This document shows, piece after piece, positions 2,110 through 64,000 of a stretch of 64,000 bases of DNA. The DNA lies in contig QPGO01000036.1 of NCBI GenBank assembly GCA_008632985.1, positions 1-64,000 on the forward strand, in the 5' to 3' direction. Under the pieces are notes generated by a model. The model did not search any database. It had not been told where the DNA came from and saw nothing but the letters and a program-made list of their open reading frames with translations. The translations under genes were made by a program, and so were the position numbers. Each line of letters starts with the position of its first letter. The stretch's first letter is position 1. The DNA comes from Psammoneis japonica. Taxonomy: Eukaryota.

Positions 2110-4060
2110 TAAATGGGTTGACAATCAAGCAGTGATCGGGTTTGCCAACATTTCCAAAAATGTGACAACAAAAATTGCATCACTCAACAACCAACAACAT
2201 CTCAAGAGATGGAAACAAGAAAAGTGACTCCTCTTTGCACTTGAATTAAAAGAGACAACAATGCACAACAAACATTTGAGAAGGACAAGAAGCTCTTGAA
2301 TGCATGGAACCAGAAGAGAGTCAATGAATCGCTCTTGTTTTGAACCTCTTGACCTGTTCTGTCCATGATGGTGGTTGGTTGAAAGGTTGGTGGTGGTTTT
2401 TTTATGTGACTTGCAGCTTGAGGCATGTTGATGCATGAACACATGGCCCATGTGTGGTGTCACCTTTGGAAAGTGCCACTTGTGGAGCTTGAGTGGACAA
2501 CTCTCTGTGCTCAAGCTTTGTCCGCCAAATGCTCCATCAAAGTCCAGATGCTGCCACATCCCACCCGACCATTGACACAAAACAGTTCTTGCAAAATGTT
2601 GTTGCCTGTTTCCCTCTTCCTCTGCAGAGCAGCCCTCTTGGCGACAGTGCTGCCCACATGCCAGAATGTGCTCAAGAATGCTTTCCATTTTGCCAGCAAA
2701 GATGCCCAACGCGGGGCTGTGTGGGCTCGAATCTCTCTCAAGACAAGCTGACATTTGTGCCTGGCACTGGCGGCAATGCTGAGCCCTCCTTCCTGTTTGA
2801 CTTCCCAGGAGTGTGCCCAGATCTCCTGCGTGCTGAGTGGCTCAACCACAAGAGTCGCTGTCTTTGTCAGTTTTGTCAGCAGGATGTGCCAAGGCTGCTC
2901 TGGCCATGTGTGCACAAGGACAGCTGCGACAGGCTTTCTGCTGTCAGCAAAGAGTGTGAGCTGGCTGGACTGCCCAACCCCACACTTCACAGCTCCTTGG
3001 CAGTCACTCCAAATCAAGTGCCAACTTGGGGTCAACCGCACCTGGCTGGTTGCAATGCAAAGACAGCTGTGGCAGCACTTTGTGACAACAAAGAGAGTGC
3101 GAGCTGGCTGGGCTCCCAACCCCACACTTCACAGCCCCTCAGCACTGGCTCCCAATCAAATGCCAACTTGGGGCCAATGGCTGTGAAGCCATCATTGCAA
3201 ATCCCTGTGCCTGCCCCCTCACACAGCTTTGCACAGGGTCAACATGTGTGGCCTTTGCAAGATGGGCCCTGGCTGGCTGCTGGCTCCTCAGCCACACGGC
3301 TTGCACAACAAGCCACCACAACACAGAGCACTGTGGGGTGAGTGCAGCACAGCCCAAACAAGCACACCATGCTGAGATCACCCAGAGTTGGCTGCTGTCC
3401 TGGGGCTCCATTCAAAGCTAAGCTGGGCTGCTTGGCTCCTTGGTGTGCAGCACATGCTTGGCATCACATTCTTGTTGCCAAGCAGCCACATGGCATGTGC
3501 CCACCATTTGTGCCTGCAACAGCGACCCCAGCCACAAAGAAGCCAACAAAAAGTTGAACCTGGTTTTGTGGTTGAAGAGTGAAGAAACTGTGAGTGAAGT
3601 TTGGTTCAAGATTTGTTGGCAATGCCAAGTGGGCAACCAAAGAGAGGCACCAAAAATGGCTGTTCTCGCTCATTTCTCAAGAGGAGCTTGCGCTCATGAT
3701 GCAGGGTCTGAAGCAAGCACCAGCCAAGACAACAGTTTTTTTCTCTCTGCCCTGCTTAAAACACAGCCTTTGAGTCAATGTGGTGCTCCTTCAACAACTC
3801 ACGCACACTGGGAAGAGCAGCTGGAGCCAGGGCAGCTGGCCTGGCAGGGCTTGGCTGACACCCAAGCTGGGCTGCTCAGCCTGGTGGCACACACTCAGTG
3901 CCACATTGTCACCCTCCTGCAACTGCAATGTGCCCCACTCTTTGCACCTGCAGCAACCACCCTGGATCAAAAGAAGCCAGTGCAACTCTGGCCATGGTTG
4001 CATGGTCAATTGTGTGTGTGTGTTCAACGGTTGATTCCCCTCTTTTTTTCTCTTTTCCTT
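2110..4060. mobile_element. Degenerate repeat/transposon domain, TpA- and CpG-depleted
   Basis: Only 4 TpA counted in about 1.9 kb, none in 2405-3418; TG/CA-rich; overlapping Cys/His-rich, Tyr-free ORFs in all frames; family not identifiable. Confidence 0.6.
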
Positions 4061-4209
4061 TAACCGGCCACGAACATGAAAAAATTGCCGACATTTCAGA
4101 CATCATCTACATCTGCACTTTATCATCCCCTGTCCTAATCATTCAGTAGCTACTAGCTAGAGAGAGTAAAGACAAAGACAGGTTGTGCTTGGTAGTAGAG
4201 TTGTTTCTC

Positions 4210-15986: not shown

Positions 15987-16527
15987 GATCGAGAGGTTCC
16001 CGGCTTATGGATACTGCTACGGTAGCATCTTGGGACCAGGCAGTCGACTCTTGACCAAATGAGCAACATTAGGATAAGGCATGTAACCAGGACTTGCTTC
16101 TCCCGTCATTAGCGCTCCTGATGACAAAAAGCTTTTTGTACTAGGAAAGTGGGCGAGGTACCATTGGAGATTAAAGAAGGCGTGATACTTTAAGAGAGAT
16201 TAGATAGGGTTGTTGCGCAATAATACTCACACTTTCTGAGAAGGCGTTGACACGTTGACGTACCTTGAAATAGTGGATTTGCTTTTCGTTTGCGGGTAGA
16301 ACCCGTGGATGACCAGTCAAGTAGTGATAGAGAGAGCTGGTACCGCATTTCCCGGCTCCAACAGTCGTGAAACCTGGGAGGCAGTAGCCACTCAGATCAG
16401 GCTTTGGCACGTCAGAAAGAAGAGCGGAGTGTCGAGGGATCTCATGACACTCTAGCTTCAACGGGTCGTCGCGTTGTTGTTTGATAAGATTCGTCCAGTT
16501 ACATTAGCTGCTTCTTGGGGGTGGGTA
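15987..16527 (-). pseudogene. Partial inverted duplicate of the sulfotransferase gene at 34450-36102
   Basis: Reverse complement matches about 34779-35309, including the 76-nt intron; lacks both gene ends. Confidence 0.9.
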
Positions 16528-16960
16528 ACACACAACGGGTGTCGGGTGGTGCAGGTGTTGGCTGCTCACGCTGCATGGACCTTGCTCAGACCTCGCTGCT
16601 CGCTGCACTCAGACCTCGAGCCTCGTCGCGAAAATCTTCGCTGCGAGTCACGAAATTGGTGTTCGCAGTTGGAGATTCTGGGCGTGTGCTCCTTTTGTCT
16701 CCCTTCCTTGGCTGGAATGTGCTGCCGGCACCAATGGGCTGTTGGTTTGCACGATCTTTTCGATCCGTCGAAGGGCGATTCTCCCCCCCAATCAGACAAA
16801 CTGAGCTCACCATTACGACGTCAAGTGCTTGTAGTGGGCCTGCGATCAGCCTCTTTAGGTGGTTTGCTTGCGCGTCGCTTGGTGTGGAGGGTGATGCAGC
16901 CGGTGCTCATGGTTGGTTTTTGCGGTGTGCATGTGATAGATGTGATGGTGCTTATTGTTA

Positions 16961-17475
16961 CTGTAGAGTGCGCGAAACGTCAGAATTGCGCGTTGGCGAA
17001 AACCACAACTTTTTTTTCTCTCCTCCCGCAGCCGCACATCCCGAGTTTTGCAATTGACGACGCTTTTGGCCTCAAACGGCGGCGAACAAGGCATCGGTAG
17101 AACCGTAATCATTGTAAGAACATGTGTATTGCTTTGTTTGTGAAAATCCGTAATGAATTCGTCGAGAAAAGTGAGTCTCGTAGTCGTTTTGCGTGCAATT
17201 TCGCGTTGGGTGTTCCCGAGAACGCGATTGCTTTTTCGATTCAGCGTTGTCCTTGTACGGAGAAACGCTGAATCGCAGCTTTATTGTAACACATGTCTTG
17301 CCCATGTGCTGGATCTTGGGATGCGTCTGTCTCGGCGTCACGACAAATCGTTTTATTGCTCATTTTTTGGCCGCTGCTGTGTGTTGTGTTTGCCAGAGCT
17401 CATTGTTGTTGCTTCAAAGAGGATCCGCTCCGGGCTGTCCAAGGCGCGGAACGTCTCTTTGTTGTGTTTAAAAGA
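16961..17475 (+). repeat. Left terminal inverted repeat (515 bp)
   Basis: Reverse complement of 19031-19544 with 14 transitions and one homopolymer indel. Confidence 0.95.
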
Positions 17476-17528
17476 CACGTTCTAGATAGATTAGCTGGAC
17501 AGAGCACAACTGCATGTTTTAGTCTAGT

Positions 17529-18887
17529 CTAATGTGACACAGCTGCTCGAACAGCTGTGTTGAATCCTCCAACACAGCTGAGGAAGAATTCTTCCTCAGC
17601 ATCCCCCGTCTTCCTTTCCTGATTGTCATCGCACCCTGGCACCCCACACTTGCGAAAACAGTTCCTAGCTTTTCGTGGCGTCATCTCTTCCAATGCCAGC
17701 TCGTGCACCATTGACCAATTCATGCCTTCTTCATGAGAAAAACGCTTCAGGCCGGACTTGCAAACAGAGAAGCAGTGCTCAATTGGATTCAAATCAGGGC
17801 TGCAAGCTGCTGTGTAAACTGGCTTGGCTCCAGCATCTTCAATCAGTTGTCGAACGTAGTCAGAGATGTGTGTCGATGCGTTGTCCATCAGCACCACAGA
17901 CCACGGCTCGCAAAGATGATGCCTCCCTGGAACCGGCACCAAATCATTCTCAATGCATCTCTCAAACCTTTCCATGTCCACAGTCCCACGTTCCGGGTCA
18001 TTGTCATGAGGGCCATGTTCACGTTCTGCCAGCGTGCACGCTTCGATCACAAAACCGTTTGCATCTGCAGCACCAACAACGGCGCACCTCTTGCGAAAAT
18101 CTTCCTCAAAATGTGCATCAACTGCGGGTGGTTTGCCAAATTTTCCCCAGCCACGCAAACGCCTGGATGCGTTGGCACTCTTTGCCGTCTCATCAACAAA
18201 GATGGCCATCTCTGGTTTTTCTACGAACAACTCCAGCCGTCGAAAGCACCTCTCCCGCTTGGCCTCGCATCTTTGTCTTGAACGAAAAACCATTTTTTGA
18301 AGAGAGCAGCCCAGTCGGTGCAATTGACGCCACATGGCAGAGGGGTGCCATGTCACACCCCGGCGTCGTCTCATTGAAAGCTGCATTTCATCGAGATGGA
18401 GATGCGGCTTCTCTCTCACGATGTCAAGCAGCACTTCATCATCCACCTCTGAAAATGATGCAGCTCTTGTTGTCACTCTGCAATGCCTTTTCCAGCTGTT
18501 CATTCTACGGCGAGCAGCAGCTTTTGTCTCACCACACTGAAGGCAGTGGTGAAACCAGTCATAAAATGTCTTGCACTTGATCCTCCGGCCAAACATCTGA
18601 TCAACTTCTTCCCAAACAGATTTGAGAAGACGGATTTTCCCACCATCCTTCTGTGCATGCTGCCACGCATTGTCCCCCAGTTTTTCCATTGCAGTCTCAA
18701 CATGCTCCTTCTGCAGTTTCTTGTCGTCGTGCGCTGCACCGCCATGCCGTCCAGGTGCATTCGGCCTGTTGCATGTGTGATGCCGAACTCCGGGAGCAAC
18801 CCAAACCCCATGTGTCATGTCCCATCTTTGTGCCTCTCCAAAATTGTTGCCCTCCCCCGCAGCAAACAACTCAGCTGCTGTTGCCAT
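17529..18887 (-). CDS. DD34E transposase (DDE_3/IS630-like), hypermutated
   Basis: Motifs IFVDET, VLMDNASTH, ACSPDLNPIE (34 residues between second D and E); HTH region PHLHLDEM...RLGCS; conserved Tyr positions appear as Cys/His. Confidence 0.9.
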   Translation of the reverse strand: MATAAELFAAGEGNNFGEAQRWDMTHGVWVAPGVRHHTCNRPNAPGRHGGAAHDDKKLQKEHVETAMEKLGDNAWQHAQKDGGKIRLLKSVWEEVDQMFGRRIKCKTFYDWFHHCLQCGETKAAARRRMNSWKRHCRVTTRAASFSEVDDEVLLDIVREKPHLHLDEMQLSMRRRRGVTWHPSAMWRQLHRLGCSLQKMVFRSRQRCEAKRERCFRRLELFVEKPEMAIFVDETAKSANASRRLRGWGKFGKPPAVDAHFEEDFRKRCAVVGAADANGFVIEACTLAEREHGPHDNDPERGTVDMERFERCIENDLVPVPGRHHLCEPWSVVLMDNASTHISDYVRQLIEDAGAKPVYTAACSPDLNPIEHCFSVCKSGLKRFSHEEGMNWSMVHELALEEMTPRKARNCFRKCGVPGCDDNQERKTGDAEEEFFLSCVGGFNTAVRAAVSH

Positions 18888-19030
18888 GAGACATGGAAAG
18901 GTTGTTGCCACAGTCAACACTCGACAAAGCCTGCACTTCAAGTGACGAGAAAAAGGCAAACATGCCGTTAGATTGGCGATGATTTCACGACGCCAAGATC
19001 CCCGTTTTGAAAAATTCAAAGCAACGAATC

Positions 19031-19544
19031 TCTTTTAAACACAACAAAGAGACGTTCCGTGCCTTGGACAGCCCGGAGCGGATCCTCTTTGAAGCAACAA
19101 CAATGAGCTCTGGCAAACACAGCACACAGCAGCGGCCAAAAAATGAGCAACAAAACGATTTGTCGTGACACCGAGACAGACGCATCCCAAGATCCAGCAT
19201 GTAGGCAAGACATGTGTTACAATGAAGCTGCGATTCAGCGTTTCTCCGTACAAGGACAACGCTAAATCGAAAAAGCAATCGCGTTCTCGGGAACACCCAA
19301 CGCGAAATTGCACGCAAAACGACTACGAGACTCACTTTTCTCGACGAACTCATTGCGGATTTTCACAAACAAAGCAATGCACATGTTCTTACAATGATTG
19401 CGGTTCTACCGATGCCTTGTTCGCCGCCGTTTGAGGCCAAAAGCGTCGTCAATTGCAAAACTCGGGATGTGCGGCTGCGGGAGGAGAGAAAAAAAGTTGT
19501 GGTTTTCGCCAACGCGCAATTCTGACGTTTCGCGCATTCTACAG
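19031..19544 (-). repeat. Right terminal inverted repeat (514 bp)
   Basis: Inverted copy of 16961-17475. Confidence 0.95.
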
Positions 19545-19810
19545 TATACAAAAATTGTGTGGGATTCTACGCGGGTCTCCCTGGTCGCGGAATAGGGAAC
19601 AAAAGAAAGATCCGGACCGGACGTGACATTTTTTGGATGGGCGACAGGCGACAGGCGGCACAGTTACAAGTTCATTCAATCACAACTAGCCATCGCGAAG
19701 TAAGTGAGAGGAGTGAGGAGTGAGAGAGCAGGCTTAATAATTTGCGGGTTGCGGACTTGGTGGCAGAAGCAAACTGCTTATTCTGACGCCTCTCCCGCTT
19801 TCGGTCTGCA

Positions 19811-21763: not shown

Positions 21764-23479
21764 TTATAGGACCATCTTTTCTTTTGCACCGTCCTCACTT
21801 TTCAACAATTCCCGAATTTGACGGTAGGGGTAGAGAGATCGATGCCCGTCAGACCAATCTATGGAATGTGCGTAGTTCCCGCATGATGCCATGTTCAGCG
21901 GTCGAATCGAATCGGAAACAGAGCGGGGATCCAATATTTGACGCCCTGTCATCTCCTCGACACATGCTGCACAGCGACATGCTCTTCTCAGTGCAGCAGG
22001 ACCGATAGACTCCCCATCCACCTCGATAGTGTGCTTTTCCTCGTCGTAGGAAATTGCCGGTCTCGAACCATCGCTTCCCGAGAACTTGGCCTTTGCTACT
22101 TCCACTACGACAGATTCTGCGAGGTCATGAAATATATCAGCTTGAGAGCTTTCGGGATTCTCAAGGATGTAAGGTGTCCCAGAATCCCCATTTGCGGCTA
22201 TCCGATCCATGAGTGGCAAAGAAAACGTGTGTTCAATTCCCCATTGGTCGGACAGTCGCTTCTTGTGCCCGGGACCAAAAATATTAACTTTCTCTTTGGA
22301 TGGTTCCTGCTGTTGCTGTACAATCTGGACCAATTCTTCAGACAATTCCTCGGTTGATTTGTCGCCATTCGTAGGAGTGACAGCCTGGTTGAGTTTTGAC
22401 ACAAAAGTATCCTTTAGTTTGGTCGTATCGACCTTGGGAGTCGAGTCAACTTCATAGTAGGCCATATTCTCTACAACAGCAACACAGGGAACATTCACGG
22501 TATCAAACATTTCAATGCCACGGACAACATCGGCGTAGCTCAATTCTTGTGGAGTTGTTACAATCACAGCTGCGGTGATATTCAGACGTTGAGTGAGAGT
22601 TAGTTGAATATCACCGGTTCCTGGAGGCATGTCGAGAATGAGATAGTCGAGAGGGCCCCAGTTTGTGACGCTGAGAAATTGATCCAACAACTGGGTAATC
22701 ATTGGTCCTCGCATGACAGCTGACCCCTCATTGATATATCCAAAACTCATGAGACGAACGCCGTTGCGTTGCAAAGGTGCTATTTGACGGCCGACAAACC
22801 TGACCATATCGTCGTCTGGTTCGACCATTGTGGGCAGACTGGGTCCATACACATCAGCATCAAAAATACCCACAGCAGCTCCCAAGGATTGAAGAGCAAA
22901 GGCCAAGTTGACAGCAGTAGTTGACTTTCCCACGCCACCTTTACAACTGGAAACGGCGATGACAGCGCCCACTTGTGACATGCCGATGCTATCCGTCTCC
23001 ATCGCTGTTGGCTGTGCAGTCATGGTAACGTCAACGTCTGACGTCCAAGGAAGCGCATTTATCAAACTCTCGCATTCTGCTGCAAACTGATCTTTGACGG
23101 GACAGGCAGGAGTTGTCAGCTCCACGTCGAAAGAAATCTTCCGCCCATTCAATGACAAATTCTTCACAAAGCCGAGCGTAACGATATCAGCATTCAAATC
23201 GGGATCTATCACACTTGATAGTGCTCCTAGAACCTCTCCTTGCCATTCTGTAGGTATTGGCGGAAGATCCGGAGAAGCATCGTCCGAGGATGACGTGAAC
23301 AAAATAGAATCGGCCAATGTGGGGGCTGGTCGCGCAGAGGTTGAAGTCGTCCTCTTGAAGCTGTTTGCAGCAAGGGGAACGAACGCATCACTATCACTGA
23401 AACGTCCGATAATTAAAATAAAACCAACCCATACGATAGACATGGACTTCATCCGACCAACAACGGCAAAAGAGGCCAT
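21764..23479 (-). CDS. HCF101: Plastid Fe-S cluster scaffold HCF101 (DUF59 + Mrp/NBP35 P-loop NTPase + DUF971)
   Basis: VIDPDL...LTTPACP, SSCKGGVGKST, DADVYGPS, DMPPGTGD, C-terminal CRCAAC...WSDGH; SDAF plastid-targeting motif. Confidence 0.92.
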   Translation of the reverse strand: MASFAVVGRMKSMSIVWVGFILIIGRFSDSDAFVPLAANSFKRTTSTSARPAPTLADSILFTSSSDDASPDLPPIPTEWQGEVLGALSSVIDPDLNADIVTLGFVKNLSLNGRKISFDVELTTPACPVKDQFAAECESLINALPWTSDVDVTMTAQPTAMETDSIGMSQVGAVIAVSSCKGGVGKSTTAVNLAFALQSLGAAVGIFDADVYGPSLPTMVEPDDDMVRFVGRQIAPLQRNGVRLMSFGYINEGSAVMRGPMITQLLDQFLSVTNWGPLDYLILDMPPGTGDIQLTLTQRLNITAAVIVTTPQELSYADVVRGIEMFDTVNVPCVAVVENMAYYEVDSTPKVDTTKLKDTFVSKLNQAVTPTNGDKSTEELSEELVQIVQQQQEPSKEKVNIFGPGHKKRLSDQWGIEHTFSLPLMDRIAANGDSGTPYILENPESSQADIFHDLAESVVVEVAKAKFSGSDGSRPAISYDEEKHTIEVDGESIGPAALRRACRCAACVEEMTGRQILDPRSVSDSIRPLNMASCGNYAHSIDWSDGHRSLYPYRQIRELLKSEDGAKEKMVL

Positions 23480-23853
23480 TTTGCTGCTGTGCCAATTTTT
23501 TCTTTGTTCCCTGCCTCCGAAAATGTGGCGCAGAAACCAGCCAAGTTGAACTTTGAGCTCCGTGGTACAAACGACACTAGAAATCTTACATACGTAAAAA
23601 CCAGTATCTTTCCCCGTAGTTCTGTTCCACGCGGCGGTGCTTGCGTATGCTTTCAGCTTCTGGACAAACCAACACACAGGCAAGAGAAAGATGGAGATCG
23701 CTCGATGCTCGATGCTCGATGCCAGATGCCAGTGAAATAAATGCCAACAATGGCAGTGAGCAGAGTGGCGGTGTTGAAAACAGCAGACTGTTCACAGGGA
23801 CAAAGAAGACTATCCGATAGGTCGATTGAAGATGCGTGTTTCAGAAACTTAGC

Positions 23854-30099: not shown

Positions 30100-30360
30100 A
30101 CGAGCTCTCACGCCCAGCTAGACCCTCTACTCTCTAGTCTAGAGTACCGGTAGAGCTAGCTCTACTCTCTAGTAGTAGTAGCTCTAGCTAGTAGTAGTAG
30201 CTAGCTCTACTCTAGTAGAGAGAGTCGTCTCGCTCGCTAGACGGTAGGGACTACCCTATCTCCTCTCTCTCCTCTCTAGCTAGCTAGCTACTCTAGTAGT
30301 ACAGTAGAGTCGGAAAGGTATGTAGCTGCGCGTAGGCCGTCCACTCTAGATAGATGTTTG
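30100..30360. repeat. CTAG/TAG/AGAG low-complexity tract
   Basis: ctctagtctagagtaccggtagagctagctctactctctagtagtagtagctctagctagtagtagtagctagc... Confidence 0.8.
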
Positions 30361-37351: not shown

Positions 37352-37665
37352 GATGTCGACAAGTACAAGTAGTGAACATGCAACAGAGATGAAGCTTTGT
37401 TAACACACACAGTATGATGTGCGCCTTATTTTACTAGCAGGTCTACTAGTCTACTTCTACGATTGGCCATTGGCGGTGTGCGGTGTTTGTGTTCTCCTTT
37501 GGCCCCTGGTCGGGGGAGGGCTTTGCCCGCGCAGCGCACCGCTACCCGCTATCCACTGCTCTCTACTCTCTAGCAGTGGATAGCCTCTACTCTAGCTCTA
37601 GAGCCAGCCACTAGAGCAGAGAGTAGAAGTAGCTAGCTAGCAGAACTCCACTCTAGAGAGTAGAC

Positions 37666-40600
37666 TCACTGTCCTGCCGGTGCAAACCTCTGGTCCTTGT
37701 TGTCACAACCCCCAAAATGAAACCCCCAGCTGGACCCACAGGCTGTCACTTCTTCCACTGCAAAATGTGCACCACAGGCATGCATCATGGCACTTGTTTG
37801 AAAGCCAAGCACAGAGCTGGGGCGACGTGCCAGAGGCGCCAAAAATGATCTCATCTCCCGCGCTCATCTTGCTCCAGCCCAAGGAGGTGGCTTTGACTGC
37901 AGCAGCAAGAGGAAATGCAGAGTCCAGAGGAGCAGAGAATGTGACACCAAGCACCCCACAGGCACCCCAAGTCAAACTCTGGTGGACAGGGTGCAAACTG
38001 CAGCACTGACCTCAGCTCCAACAAAGCAAGTCAAGAGGCAGCACAATGAGCCACAGAGAGAGAGCAGCAGACAGAGCCGGGCAGCCATCTGCACATGACT
38101 CTGCAGCAGATGACAATGTGTTGTCAGCTTCAGGGATTGCAGTCTTCAACAGTTTGTGAGGGTGTGTTGGCATTTGGCTGCAACAACATGTCAAGTGAGC
38201 ATGAAGAAGAGAGAAGAGCACAGTCACTTCATTGTTCATTTGTGCAGAGTTGAAATGATGGTGCCACATTCTGTGATGATTGATTTCAAGTCAGCATCTC
38301 CCAGACACATTCCTGAGTCACCAGATCCTGCCATCACACATGCACACACACACTCTCTTGCACAACTTAGCTGCATTCCCTTCTTCATCACAATGATGAT
38401 TTGAAGCTTGCTCTGCAGTCATTGGTTGCCTGGTTTGGCAATGCATGTCATTTGCTGTGCAAAGTCTTCTTGAGCTTCCTGCAACAAAACCCCCAGCTTT
38501 CTTTGCCATTTTCCAGTCATTTTCTTCATGTGCTTTATGCTGCAGTCTGCAGCTTTCTTCTGTTGTCTCCCAGATGTAGTGGGGTCAAGATGGGGCTCTG
38601 AACAGCACAACTGGGGCCAAGTCAAAGGTTCATGGCTTGCCAACTGGCAAAAAAAGCCAGCAACTCATGCAGTGCATCTGCAAGAGATAAAACAACAAAT
38701 GTGCTAGATGTGCAACAAACTCTGGACTTGCTGAGTTGGCAGTGCACAACAAACCTTTTGCAAATGATGATGTCATCTGATTAAAAACAAGATCAACCAA
38801 AGCTGTGTTTTGTGCATGACAATTGACCCAACAGACAACAACACACACGTCTGTGAATTTGACCTCATCAAGATTTCAAGCATTGCATGTAGAGTGAGGC
38901 CAGATCCACAGACACTTTTGTGCACCATGCAACCCCTGTTTCTGACATTGTTGCATGCATGGTGTTCACTTCCAATGGTGCATTCCCTCTTTAATTTCTT
39001 CAAAAAAGCAGCCCAAGTGCCACAATGCATTGCTCTGTTTTCCAGAAAATGTGTGATGTTTTTCCCTTGGTGCCAAATTTCCTTCACCAGCATGCATTTG
39101 TTGTCAAACAACAAACTGTGGTGGGCACTGAAAAATCAAAATGATGTTGCTTTCATGGGTTGGAAGCAGCACCATGTTGGCAATTGCAAGGACTGGTGCC
39201 AGCAAAAGGTGAGACTTGTGCAACCAACAATGGAGTCAAAAATGTTTTGCAAAAGATTGTGCGTGCTTGTGAGAACTCGTGCAGGCTCAAGTGTCTGCTC
39301 TTCACATGCAGCTGAGCTCTTGCATGGCTCTTCTTGGAGATTGTCTGCACGGCATGGCAACAGCAATTGGAAAGAAATCAAGAGCTTCAAGAAGTGGCAT
39401 GGATTCTCTGCAGGGACTTTGAGAAGGGATTGCAGCACACAGCTGTGGACTGACTGTGGCCCCGGCCATTTGCACTTTGAACAAAAAACTTCAACAAGGT
39501 CAGTGACTTTTCAAAAAAGTGTTGGACTTCCAGTTTTCATCTCAGCCACAGATCTCAAGGTCCAACACAGTTTGCTCAGAAAAGCAGCAAGCCTTCAATG
39601 GTTTTAACTTGAGCAGGTCCAACAGTTTTTTTAAATGCTTGACCTCCATGGTTTTTGTGTGGACCTCAGATCTTGTCAAGGGTCAGCAAATCTTTTTAAA
39701 AATGTGAAAGATCTTCATGGCTTGCATGCCCTGACATCAGACATCAAAATGTGACCTCCAATGAGCCAGATCTGCAATGATTTTGTCTGGCCTCAGACAT
39801 TGAGGGACAAAGGTTTTTTCAAAATAGTGTCAGACATTTGACAGCTTTCATCCAGACCTCAGAGACCTTGAGATCCAACTGCTTTTTTCTAAATGACACA
39901 CCAGACCTTTGACAGTTTTCATCTGGACCTCTCTAACCTTGAGGCATGTGGTGGTTTTGCAAAAAGGGCCACAGACCTTCAATGGTTTTTTGTTTGAAGC
40001 TCAGACCTTGAGGTCTGATGTTTTTCTCAAAACAGCAGCACACCAGACCTCCAATGGTTTTCTTTGTCTGCACCTCAGACCTTGAGGTGTGATGTTTTTT
40101 TTTTCAAAACAATCTCTGATGGCTTTGGTCCAGAGTTCAGACCTTGCTTCAGGTGTGACAGTTTTTCAAAACAGCACCAGACCTCTGATGGATTTTGTTT
40201 GGACCTCAGACCTGAAGGCATCATGTTGCTTTTTTCAAAAAAGTTTCAGACCTCTGATGGTTTTTGTCTGGACTTTGGGTCTGTGTCTTTGTCCAAATGT
40301 CCCACTCCGGCATGTTGAGATCCCACCTTGAGCCAAAGTGCATCATGTGCGAACAATGCCCAGCCTGACAGCATTCAGAGGTTGCAGGCCAGGCATTTCC
40401 AATTGTTGCCATTCTTGGCTGTGCATCACTCACAGATTCCAAGTGGCTTTCCAACTTTTCCAAGCAGGTTCTGCATCATTCGCAGAGATGTTCAATTTGT
40501 CCAGCAGGCGCCTGCTGGGTTTTGCTGCATCTCTGCTTGATTTTGGCATTGGGAACAAATCACACAGCACCACCTCATGCAACTCTCTCAGCACCCTCTC

Positions 40601-41140
40601 TGCTCACACTTTGTTTTCTTGAACAGTTTTGTGCAGGTGCAACTTTTTGTGTTTTGGTGCAGACACAAAGGCAGCCACAACAAATGTGCAAGACACAGCG
40701 TTCTAAAAGCCATTTGGACAATGAACACACAACAGCTTGAACCTAATCTGTGGGACAAGGGACAAGGTCATTGAAGACATTGGAGCTGAGGACAAAGTGT
40801 CAGTTGTCAACTGCCGCAATCTGCAGAGGACTCTGTGCCAGCAGCCATCCATCACACCCAATGCTCTCAAGGTTGTTTCATAATTTCAAAAGCCTGGGAA
40901 CTGCTGGAGGTGCCCCCAAGATGAGCCACAACCCATGCAAAGGTGCTGTTGTAACACATTTTAGCTCTGTGGGCACAACACTCCTTGCTGGTCTAAAGCA
41001 TTTGCAGTTCTCTTCTCATGGCGGCCTTCCAATTGTGAATTGTGAGGATGTCACTGAGGCGGCTTTTGACCGAGAATTTTTGCATTGCCATTGCACACTT
41101 TTGTGACTTCTGTCCCAGCATTTTGCAATGGATCCCTCTT
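37666..41140. mobile_element. Degenerate DNA-transposon domain (possibly hAT-like), TpA/CpG-depleted
   Basis: Near absence of TA and CG; internal 60-bp tandem array; minus-strand remnant WVNCHAQNTAL resembles the hAT CxxH motif (weak). Confidence 0.55.
39490..40280. repeat. Degenerate ~60-bp tandem array, about 12-13 units
   Basis: Consensus-like cagacctctgatggttttgtctggacctcagaccttgaggt...ttttttcaaaa recurring. Confidence 0.85.
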
Positions 41141-41379
41141 GCCGTACACTAGCCCTACAATATTTGGTTTTGCTCGAATCGATTCGAAAACACGTCGTGA
41201 CAAGGTAATTTCATTGGTTGGAACCAGACGTGAGGATTTTGCACACCGCACCCTCCAAGCGAACCCTAGGGCCCTAGCAGAGACTAGTAAATGCCTACGG
41301 TAAACGAATCCTATTTTAGTTTACCGACTTAAGTATGGGCTACTCTGAAGCACGTCTAATCTTGAAACCAACCGTCTCT

Positions 41380-49694: not shown

Positions 49695-50110
49695 CTATTG
49701 CTGCTCGACAAGCCAGTTAAGAATGTAGTCGTCAAAGTTTGGAAGAACGTCGCCTCCATCGAAGTTAGCATGCCCCCCTGTATCAAAAGTGACAAGCTTG
49801 GTTTCATTGTGTACCATATATCGTGATGATAATTGGTGTGGCACTAATGGATTATCCCTGGCCCAACACATTTGAACATGAGGGTGCAAAAGCCCCTGAC
49901 TGTATCGCTACATTCGGTTTCATCCAGGAAACTAGCCGGATGCATAATGACTGCACCTGCTGCATGTAATCTTAACGGGCCTCCTTTCTTTGCTGCATCA
50001 GAGAGCATCGTAAATCCAATCCTCCAGACCAACTTTTCACACCCAGATGAAATGGCTTTCACTTGACACCCCACCCAAGCCCTTCTTGAATCACCGCATG
50101 TGAATGATCC
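49695..50110 (-). pseudogene. Alpha/beta-hydrolase-like C-terminal remnant at the edge of a mutated domain
   Basis: QMCWARDNPLVP...KLVTFDTGGHANF resembles the acid/His region of alpha/beta hydrolases; frameshifted; upstream part runs into TA-depleted DNA. Confidence 0.45.
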
Positions 50111-53100
50111 TCAGGCAGCTTTCTCAGACTTGTTGAAAGAATCCCTTTGCCCGCTCTTTTTGATGGGTGGGATGCAACTGTAAAAACTCCTCCCATTGTG
50201 ATTCTGATGGCACCGAAAAGATGTGCTTTGCAAAACATGGTGAATGGTGAGAAACTCTTTGAATCGCTGTGAAGCGTGCGCACTGGTTTGTTGTGATGTC
50301 GGTCGTCTGCGCATGCTTTTCAGGCGACCCCAGTGGGAAGATGGCGCAGGTCTGTCCATTTGCAAACACCAAAGGACCCCGATTCAATCGACCTCCACCT
50401 GCCTGGACAGTGTGCCAACTGACTGTCCACAGTGACTGTTGATGCTGTGCCTTTGAGACAACAAAAACCTGCCATCATGCTGAACACAGTGCCAGGATCA
50501 ATTCAAATTTCACACGCACAGCCTGCGGAATTGCGCGCGACAACCACCCCTTGTTCGCACTGCTGCATTGACTGCACAATGTCCACTTCTCACTTTTTTC
50601 TGACGATTTTTGAAATTGTCACAATGTGCACCTTTTGTTTTTTCTCCATTTCCTGTTTATGTTCTTTTTCCCACTGCCACCTTCTGTCCATCCCATCTGC
50701 ACTTCTGGGCCAGCCTTTTTCTCCACACTGCTGCCCCTTCTGCTCTCCACTGCCAGCCCCAGCCACCACACATGCTTGTGCTTTTCCCCCAAACCATGCT
50801 GGCAACAAGAAGAAGCAGAGCATGTGAAAGAGAAAAAAAGCTGCTGTGGCTTTTGGGCTGGCAACAACAAGCTCCCCAAAGCTGTTTGGGCAGCTTGCAG
50901 ATCTGCAAACATTGCCTTCACAGTTGCTGTCAGTTTTGACAAGAATCAAATGCAAAAGACCAACCTGCCAATCTTTTTGGAGTTGTCCAGCTTGCTGCTG
51001 CAAAGTTTTATTGCTTTGAGTTTGTGGTGCTGCCAGAGCTGTTTGGAGATCTTCTGAAGCTCTGGTGAGATTGCATCAACCCAGCTGAAAAAACAATGGT
51101 GGGTTGTGGCATCTTGTTGTTGTGACTGCCACTTGTTTCTGGCGGCATGCTGCACACCATTTTCAACACAAACAGAATTTTGAATTTTTCTGCCCATCAA
51201 ATTGAGTCATCAACGGATGTGGAAACTCTTCCCTTTTTGCAATTTTTTTTCTTTCGAGTTCTCTTTGGAACTCTGCAGTGGTGCTGGAGCAACTTGAGGG
51301 TGTTCAGAAGCTCTGATTTTGCAAAACAACACAAATCAACATGAGTGGCACATTGCTGCAATGGCAGTTGGCACCATGTTTTTTCCCACTGAATCTTTCA
51401 AATGTGCTTCTCTTGCCTGTTTTCTTCATTTGGTGGCACCCTTGTGGTCTGATCTGATGTTGCTTCTCATGGTGACTTGTGTTTCATTGTCAAAGAGACA
51501 AGTGGAGCTCTGCACACACTCAGGATGTGGCCCAAAAAGCTGGGTGCAAAAATGGAAGAGGTCCAAGATTTGGGTGTGTCCCCAGCCCTTTTCTTGAAGA
51601 AATCACCCCAGCTTCTGTTGGCTTTGCCTGACTTTTCTTGTGGCCCGATCTGGCATTGCTTCTCATGGTGACATGGTCTGTTGCTGTGGAGCCTTGGTGA
51701 TCAAATTGTTCTTGAGCAGGATCCACATGTGAGGGCTCTTGGAAGTTTTGCACCTTCATGCCCCGTGGTGCCATGGGTGCACCTGCTCCATCTCTCAGAC
51801 TGTCCCGGGCTGTGGCTCTGGCTGTGGGCATTGTTCTGATTAACTGGCCAGCTGGCACCCTGTGCTGCAGAGACATCTGCTCCATCTCTCAGACTGTTGA
51901 GCACTGTGGCTCTGGCTGTGGGTGTTCTTTTGATGGACTGGCCAGCTCACCTGTGCTTCTTTGTCAAAGAGTGATGAGCAAAGCTCTGCACACACACTCA
52001 GGATCTTGGGCTGGTCCCATCACAAGACACCAAAATGGAGGAGGCTGAAGATTTTAAGATCATGCTAGGCCTTGCATTGAGAAAGAATCAAACCATCTCA
52101 GTTCCCCCACTGTCTTCGCTTGCTGTCCCCCCCTCGTGGTCTGGCCACATTTCTCATGATGATGGTCTGTTGCTGCAAAGCCTTGGTGGTGGTCAAACTC
52201 ATTTTCAAGCAAAAGCCACATGGCATGTTTCATGAGTTGCACACCTTCACGCACCACAGATGCTCTGAAGAACCAGCAGGCCTGCGGGGAGCATTGATCA
52301 CTTGTCTTTTGTTGTGGGTGTGTGCCGTTGGGCGCTGCATTGCCCGTGCGTGTGCAGGTGCCTGCCGTTGGGGCCAGCATTGCAGCAGCAGAGTGGTGGG
52401 GCCGCCTCACTGGCAACACAGAGGACCATTGTGTTTGAGAGCTCATGCCAGTTTTGGGGCTGCAGCGCGGTGCACGGACACTCTTTTTTGTCCAACTTGC
52501 CGACAAAATGGTGCGCTGCACAAACTCACTCATTTTTTGACATGTTTTTCCCAGTGTGACTGTTTTGTGTGCAATTCATCACAAATTCTCTTCACACAAA
52601 GCTCAATGCATTTTTCAACATGCCATGCCAGCAATCCCAATTTTGCGGTCCTTTGGAGCTCTTCTGAAAAACAGTTCCACGCCCCCACAGGGAGGGAATT
52701 TGTTGGTTCTTTTGGGAAGTCCCTGTGACCTCCAATGTCCTCAATGATCATTCGCTGAGTCCGAACAATTCATTTGCACTGAACAACACATGCTGTTCCA
52801 AAAAACATCCGAGGGACACACTTTCAAATTCGGACCGACCCCCGACTGCCCGACTGCCCGACCCCCCGACGGACACAAAAAAGAAAAAATTGTCATGCGT
52901 GATGCATGGCGCATGGGAACAACTTATCGGCGACTGGCGTGGTGCCAGCTCAATGGAAAAATTCAAGTCAGAAGTGTAAAAAACATGCCAGAGCCTGCGC
53001 CACTGGTGGCGCAGAATGGTTCAGGGTGCACACAAATTTTGTGCCACAGTGGCGCATGTGATTTTTGTGCGACACTCTACACGCGCCCAGTGGCGTAGAC

Positions 53101-54425
53101 CCAGTGCAAAAACAACAAATTTTTGAAGTCTTGTGGCATGCAAAGTCAGCATGTTGTGGCGTAGATTCGACATCAACAAGGCTTCACGCAACACTCGCAA
53201 CAACCAAGACAACAGAAAACCGCTCGCAAAATCTCGCTCCCACTTCACACATTGCAGCTGATGTGGTGTTGTTCATTTGTCTCACTCGTTTTCATCGTGG
53301 AACCTCCTGATGACACAGGGTGTCTTTCAGGCATGTGCATCGGTCTGATTGCCCCCCCTCTTTGGGCAAGAATGGGGTGTGTGGTTTGCTTTTTGAAGAC
53401 ACCAGACCAGCCACAAGGATGAGCTTGCAGTGGAGAGCTGGCAAGCAAAGAAGCACTGGGCTGTGCCACAAGGCACTGGCTGATGGGACAGCATTGGGCA
53501 AGCACAACCACAAGCATTTTCCTGAGGGCACTTTGCACCACATGTGACAAAGCCAGAAACATGGACTGAGAAACACAGACAGAGCCAGGTTTTGCTCAGC
53601 TGGCCACCCAGAATTCAAGCAGGGGTGCAGCCGGAATGAAGAAGGCTGCAGGTCAATTTGAGGTCCCAGTGGGAACTTGCTTTGCATGTTTGTTGACAGC
53701 CTGCTGCAGAAGCCGTGGCTGCACTGGAAATCCAAAGGTGGCTTTGCGTGGTGGGGAGGATCTCGCAAATTCTCTCAAGATTTTGCGACGCATGAGGCCA
53801 AAATTTGGGTGCAGCATCCACAGATGCTTTGGGAGAGATGCTGTGAATTTGTCAAGGCAGGCACTTCTGACAGCATGGGTGGGGAAGGCCAGTGCTTGTT
53901 GCCAGGGATCTTTGTGAAGATCTTTTGAAGAGGATGACACTGCATTTTCTCGCTTGGAAACTTCAGAGAATTGTTTGAACACAGTGGGGCCAAACCCGCC
54001 AAAGTGTGCATTGAATTTTGGAGAACAAAGAAGACACAAATCCGTGGCAGTGGCCACCAAGCTGGTGGGGCAAGGCTTGGAAAACAAGCTGCCCAAAAAG
54101 CCATGATGGGCTGGCAGCAAAACACTCCTCACAAAAGATGCCACTGTCAAGCTGCCACAGACTGGCACAACTCCACAGTTCTCCAGCATGCTGTGGGAGC
54201 TTTGCTGTCAAGCATGTAAAACCACAGCACCTCAAGTCACAGACAAGCTGCTTTGCAGGCAGAAGCCCAGCCAAGGGCCGCAAGTCAACAGCCCCACAAT
54301 GTCTTCTCTTTTTCTCCTTTTTCCTTCTTTTCCTCTCTCTCTTCTCCTTTTCTCCTTTTCAGTTCATTCTTCTGGGCCGCCTCCGGCGGCCACCTCTTTC
54401 ATTCTTCCCACATGCCGAAATCTCG
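49990..54425. mobile_element. Nested degenerate transposon domain, TpA-depleted
   Basis: Extreme TA depletion; internal diverged direct repeat; subterminal-like motif clusters at 52824-53165; many spurious Cys/His ORFs. Confidence 0.6.
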
Positions 54426-54824
54426 CTAGAGAGAGAGCACCGGTAGAGTAGAGAGCAGCTCTACTCTTTAAGTGGCAGAGAGTAGCCCTAGAGAAACCCG
54501 GAGAGCGACTGGTAACACGTCATGAGAATAGCGTGAATCATCGTGAATGATTGACTTACTTGTCCGCCCGGTCCGACGTGCGTGCGTGAGTGAGGAGTGA
54601 GTCGTCGTCATACAGTAGTACCGGTACTGCAGGTCTACGTAGCGCTCTACGTGCGACATGCGTCGCATGACTGTGTCAGAAAACGAGAAGGATGGCGGAT
54701 GGCGGTTCGGACACGACACAACTGACACGCATGCAAGATACCCACGCCACCACTCAGAGAGAGAGTACTACCATCACCTTCTTCTCACAATTCAGGTCAC
54801 GACGACTCACACTCAAAAGCCATC

Positions 54825-61893: not shown

Positions 61894-63025
61894 GATGAGT
61901 ACTAGCTAGTTGTCGTCATCGGGGCGTGCTTCTTGCTTCAGCATTCCCTCTCGGGCTTCTCTTCACATTTTTTGAGCCTTGTTCTCTCGTTTTTGAGATG
62001 ATGATGTGATTCTTCGCGAAAGTTACCGTGCGGTGACACTCACGGACTGAATCCAGTCCATGCGTCTACTCGAGCTACTACTCTATGGCATCCTAGTGGG
62101 GGTCTAGCTGGTGCCGCTGGTGCCCACACCAAAGAGACAAACCCACAACAAAAGGCAAAAACAATGGTCCTCAACAAAGTTCCTAAGAATGGCCACAGTT
62201 AAATGTGGGCAATCTGTGAGTCACACCACCCAAAATGAGAAGCAAGACCCCCCCTCTGGGTGCCCTCCTCCTGCCTGCCTTGTCCCCCTGCCCCCTCCTG
62301 ACAACACCATCACCGCAGCTGATCCAACACAACTGAGAATGTTCATTGGTCAAATCAGCTGGAGTTGCAGCATCAAAGATGGGAAGTGGAACATGCCACA
62401 TTGCCAAAAACCAAAACACTTGATGAGGATGGCCAGCCAGAGTTTTGGACTTTCTCCGCCAATGCCAAGGGCAGCAACACAACCCCAGTGTCGGGTTTGA
62501 TTTGAAGCAAAACAACACAAAGTGTCAACTGCCACCCTTGGAAGAAAAAATTTCAAAAACCATGGTTTGCATCCAAAGAATGTGACGAAAAGAAGGAAAG
62601 GAGCCTTGCTGAGTGAATGAGCAGGGACAATGACAACTTCCACACTCTCTGTTGAACAAACCATTGGGGAAGCTTTTGTCAGACAAGGGACAAAATGCAC
62701 TCAAAAGAAGGATTTTGCTGAGCTTGTAGAATGTCTCAGCAAAGCACCTGAATGCACGAGCTTGGAGACTTCCATTGATGCCAACATTTGTGGCCCACAA
62801 GCTGCGCCATCATTGCACATTGTGAAGGAATGGGGAGGAGGACAGGGCAGCACCTTTGAGGATCTGCTGCATGGTTTTTTGGACTGAGAACTTGGGCATT
62901 TGTCTGAAAACTGGTCCTTGATCTCTCAGCTCCTTGGCCCATCATTTTCCTCAAGCTCAAGCTGCCAGGAAAACACTGCAAGGCCAACAAAGGACCACGA
63001 TGAGAGTTTCCACTTGAGGGCCAAC

Positions 63026-63347
63026 TGCAGCATGCATGCAGACAAAAGGTTATTTTTGTCACGCCCTTTGTGACATTTAAACTGTAACACGTCGCCGTGA
63101 TACATTAACTCTTATTAGTAGCTGTATATTGCACTCCTCCCCATGTATCACGCGCAGAACTAATGTGCACTGACACTGCACGTTTTTGGCGGAACAGTGT
63201 GGGTACGTACAAAGGAACATACAGAACTGCACAGAGTTTTACGCGTTCGACAGTGATCAACGTTGCTGCAGACAACTCCCACTCAGGGTTTCGAACCCCT
63301 GGCCTCCTGCCTAATGGTCACGCATTGAACCACTCCGCTATGAATTC
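63026..63347 (-). mobile_element. tRNA-derived SINE-like element
   Basis: Minus-strand head gaattcaTAGCGGAGTGGttcaatgcg...GGTTCGAAACCctg with Pol III A box (63330-40) and B box (63287-97); cloverleaf imperfect, so not a functional tRNA. Confidence 0.7.
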
Positions 63348-63460
63348 ATAATGCAGCATGCATGCAGACAAAAGGTTATTTTTGTCACGCCCTTTGTGAC
63401 ATATAAACTGTGACACGTCGCCGTGACACATTGACTCTTGTCAGCAGCTGTGTGTTGCAC
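63026..63460. repeat. 109-bp direct repeat (63026-63134 and 63352-63460)
   Basis: tgcagcatgcatgcagacaaaaggttatttttgtcacgccctttgtgaca... occurs twice, with 9 differences. Confidence 0.95.
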
Positions 63461-64000
63461 AACCTCTTCATCAGCAGCAACACAGCATCACAGCAACATT
63501 TGGTTTTTTGATGCACATGGGTGCACTCACATGGCACCAACCAGTGAAACAAATGAGCTGTGTTGTGATCTTCCAGCTGTGCAGATTGCTGATTTTAAGG
63601 TTCAGCTCTCCATCTCCAGTTCTCTGAATGGGACAAAGAAGCTGCAGTCTCCTCCAGAAATGCCTCACCTTGATCTGCCTCTTCCAAGCCAGAGCACTCT
63701 ACTTGCTGATGACTTGTTGCATTTTTCAGGTCCATCCTTGGGGTTGCTTTTGTGCGGTGCATCGTGCGGCATGTCACACAAAGCTGCTTCAACCACGACC
63801 AGATTTGAGAAGTTTGTTTTGGTCAATCAGCTCGGAGCCACTCCTTCATCCCAGCAGAGGCCACAGGGCCTCATTTTTCTTCCAATCAAATCATCAACCA
63901 GCAAAAAGCAGCCACAAGTGGCTGACAATGATCTGACCTCAGCAGATGCACTGCACCCGGTGCTTCTGGCATGTCAGAAAATGACAGAACTCCCCTCTTC

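What the first reader, a model, noticed from the sequence alone, without database searches (positions are those of the whole stretch)
2110..4060. Kilobase-scale TpA deserts with sharp borders partition the window
Seen: only 4 TpA in about 1.9 kb here, and none over about 1 kb, whereas the flanking genes have ordinary TpA. The same holds for about 17530-18960, 37666-41140, 49990-54425 and 62110-64000, roughly 20% of the window. Older-looking domains lack both TA and CG, while the young Tc1 element lacks mainly TA. Inference: both TA and CG funnel into TG/CA, with TA loss coming first, so TpA content could serve as a TE detector and age clock.
Basis: partly seen in the sequence, partly recalled or inferred. 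Interest (0 to 1): 0.8.

Follow-up and report, generated by a model that had tools for sequence, protein, structure and literature searches.

The report
TpA-erased hypermutated islands in a diatom
About a fifth of this diatom DNA stretch consists of sharply bounded islands in which nearly every TA step has been rewritten to TG or CA, the footprint of a targeted mutation process so far described only in one unrelated alga.

Summary
Five sharply bounded islands, about 12.4 kb of 64 kb, have TpA at 0.06 of expectation, CpG at 0.27 and TpG/CpA at about 1.7. TA-free runs reach 1,055 bp, against at most 352 bp in 100 simulations.

The loss is mutational, not compositional:
- In the Tc1-like transposase, 10 of 13 conserved Tyr sites are now Cys or His. 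All 26 relatives examined keep ordinary TpA.
- One copy of a 119-bp repeat has TG or CA at 8 places where the other keeps TA.
- Units of a 69-bp array differ mainly by CA versus TG.

Named homologues place the window in a diatom. The signature matches the TpA-only hypermutation shown experimentally in Bigelowiella natans (2026 preprint). Seven literature searches found no report of it in diatoms.

CpG decay is a second, roughly ten-fold slower process. TpA is saturated in every island, so it marks targets but cannot date them. It is also not a plain transposon detector. The Tc1 inverted repeats and a 504-bp repeat are spared, and two islands are single-copy DNA of unknown origin.

The enzyme and the targeting rule are inferred, not shown.

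The parts
2111..4060 (.). Desert 1. Intergenic, with TpA and CpG both nearly gone.
   Evidence: TA 5 (o/e 0.04), CG o/e 0.15, TG 1.97, CA 1.71. There is a 1,016-bp TA-free run. No Pfam match in the ORFs or in 6 read-through frames.
16959..19546 (-). Tc1/mariner-like DNA transposon with TA target duplication and long terminal inverted repeats (16959-17475 and 19031-19546).
   Evidence: The inverted-repeat arms are 465-58 nt at 97-98%. The ends read TA|CTGTAG...CTACAG|TA. In the arms, TA o/e is 0.39 and 0.30 and CG is 1.46 and 1.36.
17529..19034 (-). Open 501-codon frame holding the decayed transposase. Desert 2 (17531-18968) lies inside it.
   Evidence: DDE_3 at E 3.7e-17. TA o/e 0.09, CG 0.71. 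At 14 columns where homologues carry Tyr, the window has Cys 6, His 4, Tyr 2, Phe 1 and gap 1. Tyr content is 0.6%, against 3.9-5.3% in homologues.
37662..41144 (.). Desert 3. The largest island, single-copy, with TpA and CpG both nearly gone.
   Evidence: TA o/e 0.08, CG 0.11. Contigs of DNA run X1 cover it at depth about 55, like the flanks. No Pfam match. The longest ORF has no homologue.
39507..40287 (.). Array of about 69-bp tandem units inside desert 3.
   Evidence: Units were found in purine/pyrimidine space. Among 9 aligned units, 111 of 189 adjacent double-transition differences are CA versus TG; the next most common type has 22.
50012..54426 (.). Desert 4. Composite: a single-copy left part and a high-copy right part.
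   Evidence: TA o/e 0.05, CG 0.33 overall, varying from 0.07 to 0.94. An X1 contig over 50458-52636 has depth 63. The bins over 52008-54675 have depth 955-1767.
52956..54424 (.). Repeat unit of about 1.47 kb that lies head to tail elsewhere in the genome. Its right end is the right edge of the desert.
   Evidence: X1 contigs join 54422 to 52956 and 54425 to 52955 (tables 5 and 5c).
62106..63050 (.). Desert 5, left part.
   Evidence: 62110-62750: TA o/e 0.07, CG 0.14.
63051..63404 (.). TA-normal island that interrupts desert 5.
   Evidence: TA positions. It holds copy A of a 119-bp direct repeat and the left third of copy B.
63405..64000 (.). Desert 5, right part. It runs off the end of the window.
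   Evidence: 63500-64000: TA o/e 0.06. Copy B (63352-63470) has TG or CA at 8 places where copy A (63026-63144) has TA, and all 8 lie to the right of 63404.

Best explanation
The islands are pieces of nuclear DNA in a diatom that the cell has singled out. They comprise the interior of a Tc1-like transposon, a multi-copy repeat and DNA of unknown, possibly foreign, origin. They were then mutated where they sit by a process that changes A:T to G:C only at TpA steps, on either strand. Each TA becomes TG or CA.

The process has run to saturation inside sharp limits. A second, roughly ten-fold slower process turns CpG into the same two dinucleotides. I infer that this is deamination of methylated cytosine.

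Because TAA and TAG stop codons vanish, the mutated DNA stays full of long open frames although its genes are ruined.

Shown here: the direction of the change, its restriction to TpA and CpG, that it happened in place, and its sharp limits.

Inferred: that an enzyme does it. An adenine deaminase acting on DNA is the most likely candidate, as proposed for Bigelowiella natans. Also inferred: that the target is marked by silencing or by transcripts rather than by repetition, and that the purpose is defence.
For: - Mass balance: the YpR fraction is 0.235 in deserts and 0.241 in the background. About 959 TA+CG are missing and about 885 TG+CA are gained.
- Direction, from proteins: at 14 Tyr columns of the transposase alignment the window has Cys 6, His 4, Tyr 2, Phe 1 and gap 1. 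TAY to TGY gives Cys and TAY to CAY gives His.
- Not a family trait: 26 of 26 relatives' genes examined, out of 80 loci fetched, have TA o/e 0.50-0.92. The window's copy has 0.09. The median Tyr content of 150 representative relatives is 4.0%.
- Happened in place, repeat pair: copy B of a 119-bp repeat differs from copy A at 12 sites. Eight of these are TA in A against TG/CA in B, and none run the other way.
- Happened in place, tandem array: CA-versus-TG makes up 111 of 189 double-transition differences among the 69-bp units.
- Happened in place, Tc1 arms: the two repeat arms differ at 19 aligned sites. Eight are TA versus CA/TG, 2 are CG versus TG/CA, and one adjacent pair is TG versus CA.
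- Both strands are hit singly: TG and CA show no runs (|z| at most 2.4).
- The sequence is real: k-mer contigs of DNA run X1, at depth about 55, carry the deserts with few differences, for example 5 other letters in 2,178 bp.
- Precedent: mutation-accumulation lines of B. natans, sequenced on Illumina, gained 230 of 231 mutations as A-to-G or T-to-C in two viral inserts, all at TpA. That genome has 124 clusters of TpA-poor, CpA+TpG-rich windows, and its low-TpA genes are enriched for DDE and reverse-transcriptase domains.
- By that paper's cut-offs, 12 of 64 1-kb windows here pass.
- The organism is a diatom: all named best hits of the HCF101-like protein are diatoms, at 67-78% identity.
Against: - No mutation rate was measured here, so the process may be extinct rather than active.
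They therefore give no support either.
- Run X1 comes from a single study, its library type is not on record, and it may be the source of the assembly.
- Four of the five islands have no recognisable gene, so 'foreign or mobile' is unproven for them.
- Sparing of the Tc1 terminal repeats, and a desert edge that falls inside a repeat unit, are not explained by any simple targeting rule.
- No genome is held for the window, so no candidate deaminase could be sought.
- The deserts also show low ApT (0.76 against 0.92) and high GpC (1.25 against 1.01), which this model does not predict.
Confidence: 0.72

Rival explanations
1. Same local TpA hypermutation, but the chemistry acts on thymine rather than adenine. 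A modified thymine at TpA, such as hydroxymethyl- or formyl-uracil made by a TET/JBP-type enzyme, mispairs with G and gives T-to-C.
For: TpA is its own complement, so A-to-G on one strand cannot be told from T-to-C on the other. All the evidence for the main reading fits this equally. From memory, not from any call: dinoflagellate hydroxymethyluracil is concentrated at TpA and TpC.
Against: No evidence for such a base or enzyme in this organism. No genome is held to search. No TpC depletion is seen: TC o/e is 0.95.
Confidence: 0.12
2. Editing happens on RNA and is copied back. Sense and antisense transcripts of the element pair, an ADAR-like activity edits A after U, and the edited RNA is reverse-transcribed or used as a repair template for the genomic copy.
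For: In the Tc1-like element the desert runs from the stop codon (17530) to about 60 bp inside the right repeat (18969). It spares both terminal repeats and a 53-bp spacer after the stop codon that holds 5 TA. This is what a transcript-shaped target would look like. Both strands are affected.
Against: It needs extra steps that are not known for DNA transposons. The desert fills the whole non-repeat interior apart from that 53-bp spacer, so a transcript is not the only way to draw this shape. Islands with no gene and with tandem arrays are hit just as fully. In B. natans the mutations arise in a transcriptionally silent insert.
Confidence: 0.08
3. Intrinsic composition or selection: these sequences evolved to avoid TA and CG, for instance to escape a nuclease or a sensor, and were never mutated in place.
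For: Avoidance of CpG and UpA is common in viruses (search listing only).
Against: Conserved tyrosines are replaced by Cys or His rather than by conservative residues. All 26 relatives examined have ordinary TpA. Repeat copies inside the window differ by exactly TA versus TG/CA.
Confidence: 0.04
4. Sequencing or base-calling artefact: modified bases at TpA and CpG are misread, so the deserts exist only in the assembly.
For: The platform of the assembly is unknown. The one DNA run found may be its own source. Strand-dependent miscalls could in principle give a TG/CA mixture.
Against: 31-mer contigs at depth about 55 reproduce the same TG/CA choice site by site over kilobases, which noisy long reads would not give. 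Run X1 differs from the window at 11 places in 1,528 bp of flank, so it is not simply the assembly's consensus. Two unnamed relatives from other public assemblies show the same Tyr-to-Cys/His pattern. The B. natans process was measured with Illumina reads.
Confidence: 0.04

Closest known systems
TpA-targeted hypermutation of integrated viral DNA in the chlorarachniophyte Bigelowiella natans (Mettrop et al., bioRxiv 10.64898/2026.01.13.699255; I read the abstract, Results and Discussion; supplements closed)
   Same: Only TpA is hit, giving TpG or CpA. The process is confined to discrete regions. The genome carries clusters of TpA-poor, CpA+TpG-rich 1-kb windows. DDE transposases are among the depleted genes. 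Many targets have no annotation.
   Different: A different supergroup lineage (a diatom). Here the islands are saturated, with TpA frequency 0.004 against 0.033 in the B. natans viral insert. CpG is lost as well; that paper never mentions CpG. No virus-derived gene was recognised here. No mutation rate was measured here.
Repeat-induced point mutation (RIP) of ascomycete fungi
   Same: A dinucleotide-specific transition process, sharply limited, that ruins mobile DNA in place.
   Different: The direction is opposite: RIP turns CpA into TpA and enriches TpA. Here a 96%-identical 504-bp repeat and the 97%-identical terminal repeats are spared, and single-copy DNA is hit. Repetition is therefore not the trigger.
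CpG decay of methylated transposons by 5-methylcytosine deamination (vertebrates, plants; CpG methylation of diatom transposons is recalled, not checked here)
   Same: CG becomes TG/CA inside the same islands.
   Different: It explains only the CpG half of the pattern and is about ten times slower per site here. Methylation itself was not tested.
ADAR hyper-editing and APOBEC3 hypermutation of retroelements and viruses in animals
   Same: Deaminase-type transitions used against selfish nucleic acids. ADAR prefers a U before the edited A (as cited in the B. natans paper).
   Different: Those act on RNA or on reverse-transcription intermediates. Here a cut-and-paste DNA transposon and non-coding DNA carry heritable changes in the genome.

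Membership tests
TpA-targeted local hypermutation (B. natans type) | Changes are almost only A:T to G:C at TpA, giving TpG or CpA | tested here: met
   Tyr to Cys/His at 10 of 13 ungapped Tyr columns. 8 of 12 differences between repeat copies are TA to TG/CA, and 0 run the other way. Mass balance. These are inferred from end states, not from observed new mutations.
TpA-targeted local hypermutation (B. natans type) | [quoted passage not shown] | tested here: met
   12 of 64 windows pass both cut-offs. There are two runs of 3 and 4 windows (38001-41000, 50001-54000) and shorter runs. I computed the combined CpA+TpG ratio myself, and it may differ in detail from the paper's.
TpA-targeted local hypermutation (B. 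natans type) | Targets are of foreign or mobile origin | tested here: inconclusive
   One Tc1-like transposase and one repeat of about 20-30 copies. The rest have no domain and no homologue.
TpA-targeted local hypermutation (B. natans type) | Mutation rate raised about 1000-fold in the region, in some lines only | not testable with these tools
   Needs mutation-accumulation or pedigree sequencing.
TpA-targeted local hypermutation (B. natans type) | An ADAT2-like deaminase with the DNA-editing residues is present in the genome | not testable with these tools
   No whole genome is held for the window.
Fungal RIP | C-to-T at CpA, enriching TpA | tested here: not met
   TpA o/e is 0.06 and CpA/TpG about 1.7 in the islands.
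Fungal RIP | Triggered by sequence duplication | tested here: not met
   Single-copy islands are hit. A 96%-identical 504-bp repeat and the 97% terminal repeats keep TA at o/e 0.30-0.87.
Methylation-driven CpG decay | CpG lost to TpG/CpA in the same segments | tested here: met
   CG o/e is 0.11-0.33 in four islands and 0.71 in the Tc1 interior, against 0.97 in the background.
Methylation-driven CpG decay | The segments carry 5-methylcytosine | not testable with these tools
   No methylation data.
Tc1/mariner transposon (for 16959-19546) | DDE_3 transposase, terminal inverted repeats, TA target duplication | tested here: met
   The catalytic D, D and E columns are still present in the alignment, but most conserved Tyr are lost.

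The most novel reading that the evidence does not exclude
TpA-directed DNA editing is an old defence shared across the stramenopile-rhizarian algae, and its target is defined by transcripts, not by repeats or by the limits of the inserted element. It erased the transcribed interior of a DNA transposon while sparing its 0.5-kb terminal repeats. It stops within a few bases inside a repeat unit. It works beside CpG methylation. Because it deletes two of the three stop codons, it also turns dead DNA into long stop-free frames rich in Cys and His, which pollute gene catalogues and could seed new genes.
Probability: 0.25. Interest if true: 0.85.

Novelty: new member of a known kind. Interest (0 to 1): 0.65.

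Why it matters
If confirmed genome-wide, diatoms have a sequence-rewriting defence that was unknown in them. Diatoms are a major group of primary producers, and some species have good genetic tools. The mechanism proposed from one chlorarachniophyte would then become testable by knock-outs and reporter inserts.

It would also show that the process reaches saturation and acts on transposons and on unannotated single-copy DNA, not only on viral inserts.

There are practical consequences too:
- TpA-free islands give many false open reading frames, so they matter for annotating algal genomes.
- The TpA/CpG pair gives a two-speed record: TpA marks what was targeted, and CpG gives a rough idea of how long ago.

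Tried and rejected
- Whole genome: none is held, so copy numbers, other family members and candidate deaminases could not be sought.
- Earlier notes of this scan: nothing on this genome. The word search gave only phage cases that do not bear on this.
- RNA: no RNA holder was listed. Run X2 is labelled 'DNA?', but its contigs skip four 79-126-bp stretches with GT..AG ends on the minus strand at 43.8-45.1 kb, so it looks like RNA. It has no cover over deserts 3 and 4. I do not use this as evidence of silence.
- Protein domains: 35 ORFs and 24 read-through frames of deserts 1, 3, 4 and 5 gave no credible Pfam match. The longest ORF of desert 3 has no homologue.
- Purine/pyrimidine-space 28-mer comparison: the islands are not copies of one another.
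- Strand tracts: no runs of TG or CA.
- Polymorphism between run X1 and the window: the listed sites are mixed inside desert 3. In the flanks, 7 of 22 are TA versus TG/CA. The sample is too small and only part of the table was shown, with 178 rows hidden.
- 80 environmental loci with related transposases: only 1 has a 500-bp window with TA o/e below 0.15, and none below 0.145. No further desert was found there.
- Cluster look-up of the two Tyr-poor relatives gave no names.
- Literature: seven searches found no account of TpA loss in diatoms. Subscription journals are not in the library.
- Supplements of the B. natans preprint are closed. Its tables of depleted clusters and genes, which could show closer parallels, were not seen.

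Full report
**Observation.** A 500-bp sliding count shows five stretches where TpA falls to 0-0.1 of expectation while TpG and CpA rise to 1.6-2.1. Window-wide, TpA is 0.51. TA-free runs reach 1,055 and 1,016 bp, against a median gap of 16 bp. In 100 first-order Markov simulations that keep the window's dinucleotide content, the longest run was 352 bp and no simulation had more than one run of 300 bp or more. The window has 15 such runs.

The edges are sharp. For example, 15 TpA lie in 37543-37661 and then none for 707 bp, and CpG changes at the same places within tens of bases. Two corrections are needed. The last interval is broken by a TA-normal island at 63051-63404. The second interval is only the interior of a transposon.

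**Where the lost dinucleotides went.** Over 12,435 bp of desert the counts are TA 50 (o/e 0.06), CG 204 (0.27), TG 1,295 (1.74) and CA 1,375 (1.70). The background values are 0.62, 0.97, 1.15 and 1.15. The share of pyrimidine-purine steps is unchanged, 0.235 against 0.241. About 959 TA+CG are missing and about 885 TG+CA are gained, relative to background frequencies. This is what transitions confined to TA and CG would give.

**Direction and place of the change: the transposon.** The segment 16959-19546 is a Tc1/mariner-like element. It has TA target duplication, terminal inverted repeats of about 0.5 kb at 97% identity and a DDE_3 transposase frame. I aligned that frame with five homologues of 34-50% identity. 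At the 14 columns where homologues carry Tyr, the window has Cys 6, His 4, Tyr 2, Phe 1 and one gap. Tyr makes up 0.6% of the frame, against 3.9-5.3% in the homologues, and Cys and His are raised. TAY to TGY gives Cys and TAY to CAY gives His.

The frame stays open only because TAA and TAG cannot occur. The same effect produces overlapping long frames on both strands in the other islands.

The family is not TA-poor by nature. I examined 26 of the 80 related loci fetched from metagenomes, and all 26 have TA o/e 0.50-0.92 in the gene, against 0.09 here. Of 150 representative relatives, the median Tyr content is 4.0% and only two are below 1.5%. Those two show Tyr-to-Cys/His at the same columns. 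They come from unnamed public contigs and look like further mutated copies elsewhere.

**Direction and place of the change: repeats inside the window.**
- A 119-bp direct repeat has one copy in the TA-normal island (63026-63144) and the other crossing into the desert (63352-63470). They differ at 12 sites. Eight are TA in the first copy against TG/CA in the second, and none run the other way. All eight lie to the right of 63404, so the edge of the mutated tract falls inside a repeat unit.
- A tandem array of about 69-bp units sits inside desert 3. Among its 9 aligned units, 111 of 189 adjacent double-transition differences are CA versus TG, and the next commonest type has 22. Each former TA or CG was therefore resolved independently in each unit, after the array existed.
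- The two Tc1 arms differ at 19 aligned sites. Eight are TA versus CA/TG, two are CG versus TG/CA, and one adjacent pair is TG versus CA. With about 15 TA and 44 CG sites per arm, TpA is lost roughly ten times faster per site than CpG.

**What is and is not hit.**
- The Tc1 arms keep TA at 0.39 and 0.30 and CG at 1.46 and 1.36. The interior has TA 0.09 and CG 0.71.
- A 53-bp spacer just after the stop codon holds 5 TA.
- A 504-bp inverted repeat of 96% identity (16027-16530 and 34777-35280) has ordinary TA at 0.76-0.87, and only 4 of its 26 differences are of the TA type.
- Desert 3 and the left half of desert 4 are covered by contigs of DNA run X1 at depth 55-63, like the flanking genes. They are therefore single-copy at 90% likeness or more.
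- The right half of desert 4 has depth about 950-1,770. Contigs there join 54422 back to 52956, which indicates a 1.47-kb unit lying head to tail elsewhere in the genome.
- The islands are not copies of one another, even when transitions are ignored.
- The islands yield no Pfam domain in 35 ORFs or in 24 frames read through with X at the stops. The longest ORF of desert 3 has no homologue.
- All islands lie between ordinary host genes.

Repetition is therefore neither necessary nor sufficient for a segment to be hit.

**Other details of the signature.**
- TG and CA show no runs along the islands (|z| at most 2.4), so single events hit both strands.
- Of the 47 surviving TpA, 26 are followed by A, against 23% in the background, and 11 are TTAA. 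This suggests a weaker effect in that context, or later mutation.
- ApT is somewhat low (0.76 against 0.92) and GpC somewhat high (1.25 against 1.01). This remains unexplained.

**Is the sequence real?** Only three coded runs from one study hold this DNA. Contigs of X1, built from 31-letter words at depth about 55, carry the islands with few differences, for example 5 other letters in 2,178 bp. X1 also differs from the window at 11 places in 1,528 bp of flank, so it is not just the assembly's consensus. Its library type is not on record and it may share a source with the assembly. I therefore rate an artefact as unlikely but not excluded.

**Organism.** The HCF101-like protein at 21764-23683 has a signal peptide followed by 'SDA|FVP'. 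From memory, that resembles the plastid-import motif of ochrophytes. All named best hits are diatoms, at 67-78% identity.

**What is known.** The literature searches turned up one directly relevant text, a 2026 preprint on Bigelowiella natans. I read its abstract, Results and Discussion.
- In mutation-accumulation lines, 231 of 302 new nuclear mutations fell in two integrated viral regions.
- 230 of those 231 were A-to-G or T-to-C, all at TpA, at about 6e-7 per site per generation, and only in some lines.
- The genome has 124 clusters of TpA-poor, CpA+TpG-rich windows.
- Its low-TpA genes are enriched for DDE endonuclease and reverse-transcriptase domains.
- The authors propose an ADAT2-like DNA adenine deaminase.
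- The text contains neither 'diatom' nor 'CpG'.

By its cut-offs, 12 of the 64 1-kb windows here qualify. No search found the pattern described for diatoms.

**Reading.** The islands are best explained as targets of the same kind of TpA-specific hypermutation, here seen at saturation in a diatom. Slower CpG decay is layered on top.

That the changes are mutational, directional, made in place and sharply limited is shown. That an adenine deaminase acts on DNA, that silencing marks or transcripts define the target, and that the purpose is defence are all inferences. The Tc1 pattern, with the interior erased and the arms spared, hints at a transcript-shaped target. A modified-thymine route cannot be told apart from adenine deamination by sequence alone.

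TpA content marks what has been targeted but is saturated everywhere, so it cannot date anything. CpG may serve as a rough clock.

Noticed in passing
30120-30310; also 37555-37668, 4147-4170, 54427-54495, 62067-62106: Clusters of CTAG-rich low-complexity motifs (CTCTACTCT, TAGCTAG, TAGAGAG). Four of them sit right at island edges and one lies in an ordinary intergenic spot. Shorter CTCTAGA/TCTAGAG words recur in other intergenic places. They could be a promoter, terminator or boundary motif of this genome.
   Followed up: partly
29750-30750: The opposite composition to the islands: TpA o/e up to 1.56 and TG/CA down to 0.61. This is partly due to the CTAG-rich cluster.
   Followed up: no
16027-16530 and 34777-35280: A 504-bp inverted repeat, 96% identical and 18 kb apart, with ordinary TpA and no Pfam match in the overlapping ORFs. 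It is a repeat that the TpA process has not touched.
   Followed up: partly
43799-45080, minus strand: Contigs of run X2 skip four stretches of 79-126 bp with GT..AG ends. These look like spliced introns of the gene at 43.2-45.9 kb, so X2 behaves like an RNA run although it is labelled 'DNA?'.
   Followed up: no
2125-3341 and other islands: Long overlapping open frames on both strands (209, 282 and 204 codons), rich in Cys, His and Trp. They are created merely by the absence of TAA and TAG, and are a trap for gene callers.
   Followed up: partly
P0236 and P0245 (unnamed ENA and JGI contigs): Two of 150 representative relatives of the transposase have almost no Tyr, and carry Cys or His at the conserved Tyr columns. 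They are probably hypermutated copies in other organisms.
   Followed up: partly
57965-61893 minus strand; 46275-49640 plus strand: An AMP-binding enzyme gene directly followed by a carrier-domain plus reductase gene. These may be one carboxylic-acid-reductase-like gene split by an intron or frame change. Nearby is an AMP-binding protein fused to ankyrin repeats.
   Followed up: no
25933-26467 and 31198-31732: Two segments 71-72% identical and 5,265 bp apart, probably paralogous genes.
   Followed up: no
all islands: ApT is mildly depleted (0.76 against 0.92) and GpC mildly enriched (1.25 against 1.01) in the islands. TpA and CpG transitions do not explain this.
   Followed up: no
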